Positions 27,313 to 30,603 of a stretch of 64,000 nucleotides of DNA are shown here, one piece after another. A program made the translations under genes and the position numbers. The notes under the pieces were generated by a model, which searched no databases, was not told where the DNA came from, and saw nothing but the letters and a program-made list of their open reading frames with translations. Origin of the DNA: the human T2T-CHM13v2.0 reference genome, Homo sapiens. The DNA lies in the NCBI RefSeq assembly GCF_009914755.1, contig NC_060935.1; one strand, given 5' to 3'. Every line of letters begins with the position of its first letter. The stretch's first letter is position 1.

Positions 27313-30236
27313 TCAATTCCCACCTATGAGTGAGAATATGCGGTGTTTGGTTTTTTGTTCTTGCGATAGTTTACTGAGAATGATGATTTCCAATTTCATC
27401 CATGTCCCTACAAAGGACATGAACTCATCATTTTTTATGGCTGCATAGTATTCCATGGTGTATATGTGCCACATTTTCTTAATCCAGTCTATCATTGTTG
27501 GACATTTGGGTTGGTTCCAAGTCTTTGCTATTGTGAATAATGCCGCAATAAACATACGTGTGCATGTGTCTTTATAGCAGCATGATTTATAGTCATTTGG
27601 GTATATACCCAGTAATGGGATGGCTGGGTCAAATGGTATTTCTAGTTCTAGATCCCTGAGGAATCGCCATACTGACTTCCACAATGGTTGAACTAGTTTA
27701 CAGTCCCACCAACAGTGTAAAAGTGTTCCTATTTCTCCACATCCTCTCCAGCACCTGTTGTTTCCTGACTTTTTAATGATTGCCATTCTAACTGGTGTGA
27801 GATGATATCTCATAGTGGTTTTGATTTGCATTTCTCTGATGGCCAGTGATGATGAGCATTTTTTCATGTGTTTTTTGGCTGCATAAATGTCTTCTTTTGA
27901 GAAGTGTCTGTTCATGTCCTTTGCCCACTTTTTGATGGGGTTGTTTGTTTTTTTCTTGTAAATTTGTTTGAGTTCATTGTAGATTCTGGATATTAGCCCT
28001 TTGTCAGATGAGTAGGTTGTGAAAATTTTCTCCCATGTTGTAGGTTGCCTGTTCACTCTGATGGTAGTTTCTTTTGCTGTGCAGAAGCTCTTTAGTTTAA
28101 TTAGATCCCATTTGTCAATTTTGTCTTTTGTTGCCATTGCTTTTGGTGTTTTGGACATGAAGTCCTTGCCCATGCCTATGTCCTGAATGGTAATGCCTAG
28201 GTTTTCTTCTAGGGTTTTTATGGTTTTAGGTCTAACGTTTAAATCTTTAATCCATCTTGAATTGATTTTTGTATAAGGTGTAAGGAAGGGATCCAGTTTC
28301 AGCTTTCTACATATGGCTAGCCAGTTTTCCCAGCACCATTTATTAAATAGGGAATCCTTTCCCCATTGCTTGTTTTTCTCAGGTTTGTCAAAGATCAGAT
28401 AGTTGTAGGTATGCGGCGTTATTTCTGAGGGCTCTGTTCTGTTCCATTGATCTATATCTCTGTTTTGGTACCAGTACCATGCTGTTTTGGTTACTGTAGC
28501 CTTGTAGTATAGTTTGAAGTCAGGTAGTGTGACGCCTCCAGCTTTGTTCTTTTGGCTTAGGATTGACTTGGCGATGCGGGCTCTTTTTTGGTTCCATATG
28601 AGCTTTAAAGTAGTTTTTTCCAATTCTGTGAAGAAAGTCATTGGTAGCTTGATGGGGATGGCATTGAATCTGTAAATTACCTTGGGCAGTATGGCCATTT
28701 TCATGATATTGATTCTTCCTACCCATGAGCATGGAATGTTCTTCCATTTGTTTGTATCCTCTTTTATTTCCTTGAGCAGTGGTTTGTAGTTCTCCTTGAA
28801 GAGGTCCTTCACATCCCTTGTAAGTTGGATTCCTAGGTATTTTATTCTCTTTGAAGCAATTGTGAATGGGAGTTCACTCATGATTTGGCTCTCTGTCTGT
28901 TGTTGGTGTATAAGAATGCTTGTGATTTTTGTACATTGATTTTGTATCCTGAGACTTTGCTGAAGTTGCTTATCAGCTTAAGGAGATTTTGGGCTGAGAC
29001 AATGGGGTTTTCTAGATAAACAATCATGTCGTCTGCAAACAGGGACAATTTGACTTCCTCTTTTCCTAATTGAATACCCTTTATTTCCTTCTCCTGCCTG
29101 ATTGCCCTGGCCAGAACTTCCAACACTCTGATGAATAGGAGTGGTGAGAGAGGGCATCCCTGTTTTGTGCCAGTTTTCAAAGGGAATGCTTCCAGTTTTT
29201 GCCCATTCAGTATGATATTGGCTGTGGGTCTGTCATAGACAGCTCTTATTATTTTGAAATACGTCCCATCAATACCTAATTTATTGAGAGTTTTTAGCAT
29301 GAAGGTTGTTGAATTTTGTCAAAGGCTTTTTCTGCATCTATTGAGATAATCATGTGGTTTTTGTCTTTGGCTCTGTTTATATGCTGGATTACATTTATTG
29401 ATTTGCGTATATTGAACCAGCCTTGCATCCCAGGGATGAAGCCCACTTGATCATGGTGGATAAGCTTTTTGATGTGCTGCTGGATTCGGTTTGCCAGTAT
29501 TTTATTGAGGATTTTTGCATCAATGTTCATCAAGGATATTGGTCTAAAATTCTGTTTTTTGGTTGTGTCTCTGCCTGGCTTTGGTATCAGAATGATGCTG
29601 GCCTCATAAAATGAGTTAGGGAGGGTTCCCTCTTTTTCTATTGATTGGAATAGTTTCAGAAGGAATGGTACCAGTTCCTCCTTGTACCTCTGGTAGAATT
29701 CGGCTGTGAATCCATCTGGTCCTGGACTCTTTTTGGTTGGTAAACTATTGATTATTGCCCCAATTTCAGCTCCTGTTATTGGTCTATTCAGAGATTCAAC
29801 TTCTTCCTGGTTTAGTCTTGGGAGAGACCCATCAGTGTGCTGTATTCAGGAAACCCATCTCATGTGCAGAGACACACATAGGCTCAAAATAAAAGGATGG
29901 AGGAAGATCCATTTCCTTGGTAGATCTTCCTTGGGAGAGTGTATGTGTCGAGGAATGCATCCATTTCTTCTAGATTTTCTAGTTTATTTGCGTAGAGGTG
30001 TTTGTAGTATTCTCTGATGGTAGTTTGTATTTCTGTGGGATTGGTGGTGATATCCCCTTTATCATTTTTTATTGTGTCTATTTGATTCTTCTCTCTTTTT
30101 TTCTTTATTAGTCTTGCTAGCGGTCTATCAATTTTGTTGATCCTTTCAAAAAACCAGCTCCTGGATTCATTGATTTTTTGAAGGGTTTTTTGTGTCTCTA
30201 TTTCCTTCAGTTCTGCTCTGATTTTAGTTATTTCTT
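27313..30236 (-). pseudogene. ORF2: L1 ORF2 3' portion (RT, thumb, wrist, Cys-rich CTD), disrupted
   Basis: Split across ORFs 29294-29533, 28878-29300 ([13 protein letters not shown]) and 27313-28881 (522 aa, CWRGC..HCWWDC, ending IGGN). Frameshifts near 29300 and 28890; 113-bp insertion at about 29827-29939. Confidence 0.93.
29825..29931. repeat. Templated insert: 85-bp sense copy of 32331-32415 plus 24-bp antisense copy of 32407-32430
   Basis: Flanked by duplicated cttgggagag (29817-29826 and 29930-29939). Seen in ORF 29706..30017 as [20 protein letters not shown]. Confidence 0.93.
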
Positions 30237-30603
30237 AAAGAAAAGAATTTTCAACCCAGAATTTCATATCCAGCCAAACTAAGCTTCATAAGTGAAGGAG
30301 AAATAAAATACTTTACAGACAAGCAAATGCTGAGAGATTTTGTCACCACCAGGCCTGCCCTAAAAGAGCTCCTGAAGGAAGCGCTAAACATGGAAAGGAA
30401 CAACCGGTACCAGCCGCTGCAAAATCATGCCAAAATGTAAAGACCATCGAGACTAGGAAGAAACTGCATCAACTAAGGAGCAAAATCACCAGCTAACATC
30501 ATAATGACAGGACCAAATTCACACATAACAATATTAACTTTAAATGTAAATGGACTAAATGCTCCAATTAAAAGACACAGACTGGCAAGTTGGATAAAGA
30601 GTC
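30232..30603 (+). repeat. 372-bp direct copy of 31958-32329 (ORF1 end, spacer, ORF2 start) at the inversion junction
   Basis: Manual alignment at offset 1726 shows 4 mismatches; microhomologies ttctt (left) and gtc (right). Confidence 0.95.

What the first reader, a model, noticed from the sequence alone, without database searches (positions are those of the whole stretch)
29817..30603. Five template switches recorded in one twin-primed L1; two excursions copy abutting segments in reverse order
Seen, reading the + strand (direction of first-strand cDNA from the poly(A)): antisense L1 to 29826; [ag] sense copy of 32331-32415; [tc] antisense copy of 32430-32407; [ct] return to antisense L1 10 nt behind the exit point (cttgggagag duplicated), continuing to 30236; [ttctt] sense copy of 31958-32329; [gtc] start of the inverted arm at 30601. 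The second sense excursion stops at 32329, one base short of where the first began (32331). Established: twin priming makes two antisense cDNAs, usually joined once by microhomology. Inference: the nascent strand repeatedly hopped between the L1 RNA and the twin cDNA. The first excursion's product may have stayed annealed at 32331-32415 and blocked the second. That would imply both cDNAs coexisted while first-strand synthesis was incomplete.
Basis: partly seen in the sequence, partly recalled or inferred. Interest (0 to 1): 0.85.

Follow-up and report, generated by a model that had tools for sequence, protein, structure and literature searches.

The report
Twin-primed L1 with extra template switches
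An old human L1 jumping-gene copy whose front half is flipped carries two extra pieces copied from that flipped half, a scar of a copying enzyme hopping between templates while the element was being inserted; a detailed example of a kind of event already described.

Summary
The window holds one L1 (27070-33255) with a 12-bp target-site duplication and a poly(A) tail. Its 5' 2.7 kb is inverted, which is the mark of twin priming. Five junctions replace the usual single one. Piece A (85 nt, sense) and piece B (24 nt, antisense) lie inside the antisense arm, flanked by a re-copied 10-mer. Piece C (372 nt, sense) lies exactly at the inversion junction. All five junctions carry 2-5 nt of microhomology. 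C and A copy neighbouring parts of the inverted arm, 1 nt apart (1-6 nt once microhomology is allowed for).

The junctions are unique in this genome. The pieces carry as many private substitutions as the arms (0.86% against 0.85%) and share none of the arm's five private changes. They are therefore about as old as the insertion, and are neither an assembly artefact nor a recent rearrangement.

An integration-time, microhomology-guided multi-switch event is well supported. A mirror-image reading fits equally well.

Single switches beside twin priming are already in print (2024 preprints). I rate this a new variant of a known kind, of moderate interest.

The parts
27058..27069 (.). Left copy of the target-site duplication, CCCAGCTTTTTA. 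The + strand target reads TTTTT/AA at the first nick.
   Evidence: Identical 12-mer at 33256-33267; sequence read.
27070..27107 (-). Poly(A) tail of the L1, seen as a T-rich tract on the + strand (34 of 38 bases are T).
27108..29826 (-). Antisense arm, part 1. Runs from the L1 3' end down to L1 position about 3293. Numbering follows copy L047, whose L1 starts at L047:496. This is the primary (poly(A)-primed) cDNA.
   Evidence: BLAST to L047, L048 and L049. RVT_1 domain in the - strand ORF 28878-29300.
29827..29907 (+). Piece A, a sense copy of L1 2085-2169. With its junction microhomologies it spans 29825-29909 and matches window 32331-32415 with 4 mismatches.
29908..29931 (-). Piece B, an antisense copy of L1 2184->2161, matching window 32430->32407 with 1 mismatch. 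It overlaps the end of A by 9 nt of L1 sequence, so A and B form a fold-back.
29930..30236 (-). Antisense arm, part 2, L1 3302->2996. It begins by re-copying the 10-mer CTTGGGAGAG (29930-29939), which also stands at 29817-29826.
30232..30603 (+). Piece C, a sense copy of L1 1712-2083, matching window 31958-32329 with 4 mismatches. It lies exactly at the inversion junction, with ttctt microhomology on its left and gtc on its right.
30601..33256 (+). Inverted (sense) arm, L1 about 355-3012. This is the complement of the internally primed twin cDNA. It contains an open 338-aa ORF1 and the ORF2 endonuclease domain. Its last 17 nt repeat the end of the antisense arm.
31958..32430 (+). Source interval within the inverted arm for pieces C (31958-32329), A (32331-32415) and B (32407-32430). 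Base 32330 is the only base between the C and A sources.
33256..33267 (.). Right copy of the target-site duplication, CCCAGCTTTTTA.

Best explanation
I read this as a single L1 insertion by twin priming in which the growing DNA strand changed template four more times than usual. Each change was guided by 2-5 nt of microhomology, and all of them happened before the insertion was sealed.

My preferred order of events is inferred, not shown:
1. The primary cDNA is primed on the poly(A) tail at 27070 and copies L1 RNA down to position about 3293.
2. Its 3' end pairs through 'ag' with the twin cDNA. That cDNA was primed internally at position about 3012 from the other target end, and at that moment it may have ended near position 2085.
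3. The primary cDNA copies 85 nt of the twin cDNA (piece A).
4. It folds back through 'tc' onto a sense template, either L1 RNA or an RNA remnant, for 24 nt (piece B).
5. It re-anneals through 'ct' to its original RNA 10 nt behind the exit point and continues to position 2996, which is 17 nt past the twin's priming site.
6. It pairs through 'ttctt' with the twin cDNA at position 1712 and copies 372 nt (piece C).
7. It stops at position 2083, just short of where piece A had started.
8. It pairs through 'gtc' with the 3' end of the twin cDNA at position about 355 and copies it to the target. This last step is the normal twin-priming join.

The extra DNA therefore amounts to exactly one lap around a closed path of templates. 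I put about 0.8 on an integration-time multi-switch event of any polarity, and about 0.45 on this particular polarity and order.
For: Shown:
- The layout and junctions hold against three independent L1 copies.
- Twin-priming hallmarks are present. There is a 12-bp duplication, a poly(A) tail, and a TTTTT/AA target. The inverted arm abuts the duplication. The arms overlap by 17 nt.
- L1 identity is confirmed by Pfam: ORF1p domains and the endonuclease on the + strand, and the reverse transcriptase on the - strand.
- The three junction-spanning queries are matched in full only by this locus. The other 39 scored hits in each search cover one side only. The three hits that seemed to cross a junction were fetched and are ordinary L1 copies.
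- Age: against 45 other L1 copies, the source interval of the arm has 5 private changes and the pieces have 4, with 0 shared. Against a 2-of-3 majority of full-length copies, the arms differ at 48 of 5657 sites (0.85%) and the pieces at 4 of 465 (0.86%).
- All five junctions have at least 2 nt of microhomology (chance about 9e-5), and the near-abutment has a chance of 0.26-0.52%.

Inferred:
- C lies exactly between the two cDNA 3' ends, so it arose when they were joined.
- A abuts C in L1 coordinates, so A and B belong to the same event.
- With the + strand as the nascent strand, the primary cDNA itself carries A and B. No 114-nt loop heteroduplex then has to be resolved.

From papers, passages only:
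- Template switches beside twin priming are seen in somatic and experimental insertions (10.1101/2024.08.27.596794; PMC11702581).
Against: - No shared private variant links the pieces to this element's own arm. All 9 differences are private to one side or the other.
- 15 other L1 copies match piece C better than the arm does, and 2 of the 39 other scored hits match piece A perfectly. A second L1 RNA or cDNA of the same subfamily could therefore have been the template.
- The sequence is symmetric with respect to polarity. Every junction reads equally well with the - strand as the nascent strand.
- Step 2 needs a 2-nt pairing with a twin cDNA that must be single-stranded or have a free end while L1 RNA is still there to be copied.
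- The age argument rests on few substitutions. With 5 arm-private changes and none shared, I calculate that a copying event within roughly the first 45% of the element's lifetime is not excluded at the 95% level.
- This is one locus in one assembly. No orthologue or second haplotype was examined.
Confidence: 0.45

Rival explanations
1. Same integration-time event, opposite polarity: the - strand is the nascent one. The internally primed (secondary) cDNA copies L1 RNA from position 3012 to about 355. It then jumps back onto L1 RNA (the same or a second molecule) at position 2083 and reverse-transcribes to 1712, giving the complement of C. It pairs through 5 nt with the 3' end of the primary cDNA and copies it. 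It makes a short excursion, 24 nt on an antisense template and then 85 nt on RNA from 2169 to 2085, and returns 10 nt back. The 85-nt run stops at 2085, either because the earlier product made from 2083 downwards is annealed to that RNA, or because the RNA is cut there.
For: On the - strand, C and A are plain antisense L1, the ordinary product of reverse transcription on RNA. [quoted passage not shown] 10.1101/2024.08.27.596794 (passages) proposes 'twin priming & 5' switching' for 20 somatic cases. The fold-back geometry fits slightly better in this reading, because the switch goes to a position 15 nt behind the polymerase, where a displaced strand would be free (inference).
Against: The RNA interval 1712-2083 had already been copied by the same strand. 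It would have to be freed intact from its hybrid, or a second L1 RNA is needed. The primary cDNA would lack A and B, leaving a loop of about 114 nt that must be resolved in favour of the insert (inference). The published '5' switching' model transfers to RNA that has not yet been copied, which is not the case here.
Confidence: 0.25
2. Later rearrangement. A simple twin-primed L1 was inserted first. Afterwards, replication-based template switching (MMBIR/FoSTeS type) or polymerase-theta-type break repair added the pieces, copying them from the neighbouring arm or from another L1.
For: Microhomology junctions, inverted and direct templated inserts, and a return a few bases behind the exit point are also signatures of replicative template switching and of theta-mediated end joining (recalled, not from a call). 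The substitution counts do not exclude copying during roughly the first 45% of the element's lifetime (my calculation).
Against: 0 of the arm's 5 private changes are present in the pieces, and the pieces are as diverged as the arms. Piece C would have to leave and re-enter exactly at the inversion junction, and A would have to abut C by chance (0.26-0.52%). The two arms share no homology that could drive the switches.
Confidence: 0.1
3. Trans template at integration. The pieces were copied from a different L1 RNA or cDNA present in the same cell, not from this insertion's own intermediates. On this reading the match to the arm only reflects family similarity.
For: There are no shared private variants. 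15 other genomic L1 copies match piece C better than the arm does, and 2 of the 39 other scored hits match piece A at 100%.
Against: Better matches elsewhere are expected anyway, because both the copy and the arm have each mutated since insertion. In the 45-copy panel, every difference is a private change on one side away from the majority state. An unrelated template gives no reason for the two pieces to abut in L1 coordinates.
Confidence: 0.1
4. Assembly artefact, or a rearrangement that arose in the sequenced cell line.
For: Young L1 copies are hard to assemble. Only one assembly was available here.
Against: A recent or artefactual copy of the arm would be identical to it. Instead, the pieces differ from the arm at 9 of 481 aligned positions, with private changes on both sides. 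All junctions show microhomology and no filler, and the target-site duplication is intact. I have no read-level check.
Confidence: 0.02

Closest known systems
Canonical twin priming (5'-inverted L1; Ostertag & Kazazian 2001, recalled and seen only as cited)
   Same: Target-site duplication, poly(A) at one end only, inverted 5' part abutting the other copy of the duplication, a small internal duplication (17 nt) at the breakpoints, and microhomology at the join.
   Different: Five junctions instead of one. There is a 104-nt insert plus a 10-nt re-copy inside the primary arm, and a 367-nt insert at the inversion junction. Both inserts duplicate sequence of the inverted arm.
'Twin priming & 5' switching' and '& 3' switching' in tumour L1 insertions (bioRxiv 10.1101/2024.08.27.596794; passages read; supplements closed)
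   Same: [quoted passage not shown] 20 + 3 cases among 3,598 insertions.
   Different: [quoted passage not shown] Here the extra pieces repeat sequence already present in the inverted arm. There are four extra junctions, and one excursion lies 300 nt inside the primary arm. This element is also germline and old.
GREM mRNA insertion with three adjacent, non-overlapping subsequences (PMC11702581; passages read)
   Same: Twin-priming context. [quoted passage not shown] The segments are adjacent in template coordinates.
   Different: That is an experimental pseudogene insertion with one switch and no duplication of the template. Here the abutting pieces are duplicates, placed 330 nt apart and in reverse order.
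Template jumping by non-LTR reverse transcriptases (ORF2p in vitro, PMC7617806, passages; R2 end-to-end jumping, seen only as citations)
   Same: Continuation of one cDNA on a new template, with short or no homology.
   Different: In vitro jumps go from the end of one template to the 3' end of another. Here several exits are from mid-template, and at least one template must be DNA, whichever polarity is assumed.
Replicative template switching or theta-mediated templated insertions (MMBIR/FoSTeS/TMEJ; recalled)
   Same: Serial microhomology junctions, direct and inverted templated inserts, and a return just behind the exit point.
   Different: Timing and placement tie the event to the retrotransposition intermediate. 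A host polymerase may still have carried out the DNA-templated steps.

Membership tests
[quoted passage not shown] | Sequence is L1 (ORF1p domains, ORF2p endonuclease and reverse transcriptase) | tested here: met
   Pfam finds Transposase_22, Tnp_22_dsRBD and Tnp_22_trimer in 31150-32166 (+), Exo_endo_phos in 32230-33231 (+), and RVT_1 in 28878-29300 (-). The element is 98-99% identical to full-length genomic L1 copies.
[quoted passage not shown] | Target-site duplication, poly(A) tail and T-rich/A endonuclease site | tested here: met
   12-bp duplication CCCAGCTTTTTA at 27058-27069 and 33256-33267. T-rich tract at 27070-27107. The target reads TTTTT/AA. The consensus motif is as quoted in PMC7617806.
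Twin priming (5'-inverted L1) | 5' part inverted, abutting the second copy of the duplication without a tail | tested here: met
   Sense arm 30601-33256 ends at the right-hand duplication. Antisense arm starts at the tail.
Twin priming (5'-inverted L1) | Internal breakpoints of the two arms close together (small deletion or duplication) | tested here: met
   17-nt overlap, L1 2996-3012, present in both arms.
Twin priming (5'-inverted L1) | A single inversion junction joining the two cDNA 3' ends | tested here: not met
   Five junctions. Piece C lies between the two 3' ends, and pieces A and B lie inside the primary arm.
Twin priming with switching (10.1101/2024.08.27.596794) | Extra L1 segment at the inversion breakpoint | tested here: met
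   Piece C, 30232-30603.
Twin priming with switching (10.1101/2024.08.27.596794) | Extra segment comes from L1 RNA not yet reverse-transcribed (5' switching), or from RNA downstream of the internal primer (3' switching) | tested here: not met
   C (L1 1712-2083) and A (2085-2169) lie inside the interval already represented in the inverted arm (355-3012). The definition is taken from passages only; the figures and supplements were not seen.
Post-insertion replicative rearrangement (MMBIR/FoSTeS) | Copy made after the source had accumulated changes, so source-private changes are shared by the copy | tested here: not met
   0 of the arm's 5 private changes are shared. The pieces carry 4 private changes of their own. 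Divergence is equal at 0.86% and 0.85%.
Post-insertion replicative rearrangement (MMBIR/FoSTeS) | An allele or orthologue with the element but without the extra pieces | not testable with these tools
   Only this one assembly could be searched.

The most novel reading that the evidence does not exclude
The locus is a molecular recording of one retrotransposition intermediate. The first excursion starts where the still-growing twin cDNA ended at that moment, when 927 nt of it had been made against 2745 nt of the primary cDNA. That excursion was an aborted first attempt at the normal end-to-end join. The second excursion stops because it runs into the duplex left by the first. If this is right, such 'one-lap' scars would give the relative timing and the physical proximity of the two reverse transcriptions in vivo. 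They would also show that DNA-templated copying of the twin cDNA begins before first-strand synthesis is finished.
Probability: 0.25. Interest if true: 0.65.

Novelty: new variant of a known kind. Interest (0 to 1): 0.4.

Why it matters
How L1 insertions are finished (second-strand synthesis and the joining of the two cDNAs in twin priming) is still the least understood part of retrotransposition. A fixed germline element that preserves four extra microhomology-guided switches shows that the two growing ends can exchange templates repeatedly. Two of those excursions abut in template coordinates.

The locus also gives a concrete, countable signature to screen for in T2T and pangenome assemblies and in de novo insertion sets: duplicated sense pieces of the inverted arm, with abutting ends. 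By itself it is a single anecdote. It cannot settle which polymerase or which template was used.

Tried and rejected
- **Local hairpin at the abutment.** I looked for a local DNA hairpin in the twin cDNA at the abutment point that could explain a shared boundary. There is none (folding of 32270-32440 on the - strand, z 0.74; 155 of 200 shuffles fold at least as well).
- **Junctions elsewhere in the genome.** I looked for other loci sharing any junction, which would indicate an inherited source structure or a segmental duplication. There are none among the 40 scored hits per query. Three apparent crossings were fetched and rejected. Only 40 of 200-1941 first-look candidates were scored per query, so this is not an exhaustive proof.
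- **Shared private variants.** I looked for shared private variants to prove self-templating. There are none, so the test is uninformative rather than negative.
- **'Best match elsewhere' test.** I reject it as a test, because both the copy and the source have mutated independently since insertion.
- **Single-piece reading.** I considered that A and C were once one continuous copy that was later split. This does not reproduce the observed order without extra duplications that are absent.
- **Genome-wide screen.** A screen of all 5'-inverted L1s was not feasible within the search and fetch caps.
- **Earlier findings and older papers.** Ostertag & Kazazian 2001 and Gilbert et al. 2005 are not held, so what I say of them is recalled or taken from citing papers.
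Full report
**What is there**

The repeat at 27058-33267 is a single L1 insertion.
- A 12-bp direct repeat, CCCAGCTTTTTA, stands at 27058-27069 and 33256-33267.
- A T-rich tract at 27070-27107 (34 of 38 bases are T) follows the left copy. 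On the + strand the pre-insertion target reads TTTTT/AA at that nick.
- Pfam finds the three L1 ORF1p domains in an open 338-aa frame on the + strand (31150-32166) and the ORF2p endonuclease on the + strand (32230-33231). The reverse transcriptase is on the - strand (28878-29300).
- The 3' 3 kb of the element is therefore antisense and the 5' 2.7 kb is sense on the + strand. The sense arm abuts the right-hand duplication without a tail. This is the anatomy of twin priming.

**Check of the observation**

- 30232-30603 = 31958-32329 (372 nt, 4 mismatches);
- 29825-29909 = 32331-32415 (85 nt, 4 mismatches);
- 29908-29931 = the reverse complement of 32407-32430 (24 nt, 1 mismatch).

I fetched three full-length or near-full-length L1 copies from the same genome (L047-L049). 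I numbered L1 positions from L047, whose L1 runs from L047:496 to 6533. Against each of the three copies the element breaks into the same six segments:

| Segment | Window coordinates | Orientation | L1 positions |
|---|---|---|---|
| Antisense arm, part 1 | to 29826 | antisense | 3' end -> 3293 |
| Piece A | 29825-29909 | sense | 2085 -> 2169 |
| Piece B | 29908-29931 | antisense | 2184 -> 2161 |
| Antisense arm, part 2 | 29930-30236 | antisense | 3302 -> 2996 |
| Piece C | 30232-30603 | sense | 1712 -> 2083 |
| Sense (inverted) arm | 30598/30601-33256 | sense | about 355 -> 3012 |

The overlaps between neighbouring segments are the microhomologies ag, tc, ct, ttctt and gtc. The 10-mer CTTGGGAGAG occurs at 29817-29826 and again at 29930-29939. 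No match extends beyond its stated end.

- The arms overlap by 17 nt of L1 sequence (2996-3012). This is the 'internal duplication' class of twin priming.
- The gap between the sources of C and A is 1 nt at the least. It is up to 6 nt if the junction microhomologies are credited to the neighbouring segments.

**More than chance?**

Under a random-join model, a junction has at least 2 nt of ambiguity with probability 0.156, so all five doing so has probability about 9e-5. Two pieces of these lengths placed at random in the 2652-nt arm abut with a gap of 0-6 nt in 0.26% of trials in the observed order, and in 0.52% in either order. The second figure is post hoc.

**Uniqueness**

I searched the whole assembly with queries spanning the A/B insert, the left end of C and the right end of C. 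Each was matched in full only by this locus. The other 39 scored hits of each search covered one side only. Three hits that seemed to reach across the last junction were fetched and proved to be ordinary L1 copies. The structure is therefore not inherited from a rearranged source element and is not a segmental duplicate. The limit of this check is that only 40 of 200-1941 candidates were scored per query.

**Timing**

I projected 45 other L1 copies onto the 473-nt source interval. These were all 38 other hits and 7 hits, fetched. Nine columns differ from the panel majority:
- five are private to the arm (31974, 32174, 32354, 32370, 32371);
- four are private to the pieces (32203, 32239 and 32369 in C/A; 32423 in B);
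- none is shared.

Against a 2-of-3 majority of the full-length copies, the arms differ at 48 of 5657 sites (0.85%) and the pieces at 4 of 465 (0.86%). The pieces are therefore as old as the arms and were copied before the arm had acquired its own changes. With only five arm-private changes, I calculate that copying within roughly the first 45% of the element's life cannot be excluded at the 95% level. The same numbers exclude a misassembly or a cell-line event that copied the arm. The divergence and a GAG at the 3'-UTR site that distinguishes the youngest human subfamily suggest L1PA2 age. That subfamily call is recalled knowledge, not a tool result.

**What the similarity cannot show**

The source RNA was majority-like over this interval, so nothing marks the pieces as copies of this element's own intermediates. 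15 other loci match piece C better than the arm does, and two match piece A perfectly. This is expected when copy and source have each mutated since insertion. The arguments for self-templating are positional only. C lies exactly between the two cDNA 3' ends, and A abuts C in L1 coordinates.

**Mechanism**

The placement of C and the abutment tie all extra junctions to the integration event (inference). The extra DNA equals exactly one lap of a closed path of templates: antisense 3302->2996, sense 1712->2083 and on to 2085->2169, antisense 2184->2161, then back to 3302. The strand enters the lap at 2085 and leaves it at 2083.

Two mirror-image readings produce this.
The + strand, which is the primary cDNA, is nascent. 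It copies the twin cDNA for A and C, and RNA for B and for its own arm.
- **Reading 2.** The - strand, which is the secondary cDNA, is nascent. It re-copies RNA for C and A, the primary cDNA for the antisense arm, and an antisense template for B.

I prefer reading 1, for two reasons. The primary cDNA then carries A and B itself, so no 114-nt loop heteroduplex has to be resolved. And duplicating a stretch that the twin cDNA contains is natural if that cDNA is the template. Reading 2 is how published cases have been interpreted, and it suits the fold-back geometry slightly better. The sequence cannot decide between them.

The stop of one excursion next to the start of the other can be explained in two ways: a block by the earlier product still annealed to the template, or a discontinuity or end in the template at that base. 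Under reading 1, A may start at 2085 because the growing twin cDNA ended there at that moment. That would make A an aborted first attempt at the normal end-to-end join. This idea is speculative. No local hairpin explains the shared boundary.

**Comparison with what is known**

Canonical twin priming has one junction. Three sources bear on cases with more.
- A 2024 preprint on tumour L1 insertions describes 'twin priming & 5' switching' (20 cases) and '& 3' switching' (3 cases) among 3,598 insertions (10.1101/2024.08.27.596794; passages).
- A second preprint describes a pseudogene insertion with three adjacent non-overlapping pieces and attributes the middle one to a switch of the secondary reverse transcription (PMC11702581; passages).
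- A population study files mobile-element insertions with several internal breakpoints under 'non-canonical', 2,916 of them with internal rearrangements, without dissecting them (PMC12350158; passages).

[quoted passage not shown] Coexistence of the two cDNAs is therefore no longer surprising in itself.

In the texts returned by my searches I did not find three things:
- an excursion inside the primary arm with a return to the original template;
- extra pieces that duplicate the inverted arm;
- two excursions that abut.

The supplements of the preprints were closed, and the founding papers are not held. I cannot therefore say that such a case is not in print.

**Verdict**

The integration-time, microhomology-guided, multi-switch origin is well supported (about 0.8). 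The specific polarity, the template identity and the self-block idea are plausible but not shown. This is a well-preserved, unusually complex example of a recently described variant of twin priming. It is useful as a search pattern, but as a single case it carries limited weight.

Noticed in passing
window 31150-32166 (+): ORF1 of the inverted arm is still an open 338-aa frame with all three L1 ORF1p domains, although ORF2 is split by the inversion. I did not test whether it is expressed.
   Followed up: no
window 30220-30236 and 33240-33256: The two arms share 17 nt of L1 sequence, AAGAAATAACTAAAATC on the sense strand. The primary cDNA therefore ran 17 nt past the priming site of the twin cDNA before it left the RNA.
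   Followed up: yes
window 32369-32371: A CpG-containing triplet has decayed differently in the two copies. The arm has C-A-G and piece A has T-G-T, while the majority of 45 other copies has C-G-T. The arm's two changes are adjacent.
   Followed up: partly
L048 (G000:C1:91054800-91061800), about 6011-6318: This L1 copy carries about 300 extra bases near its 3' end relative to L047 and L049, and its alignment to them starts only at L048:1119. It is probably a nested insertion plus a truncated or diverged 5' end. I did not examine it.
   Followed up: no
L052 (G000:C11:114636000-114637100), 501-513: An older L1 about 190 kb upstream of the window's L1 reads AAAGGGTCCTAC in its 5' UTR, where L047 reads GGAGGGTCCTAC. 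If the source of the window's element had that variant, the microhomology at the last junction would be longer than the 3 nt counted here.
   Followed up: no
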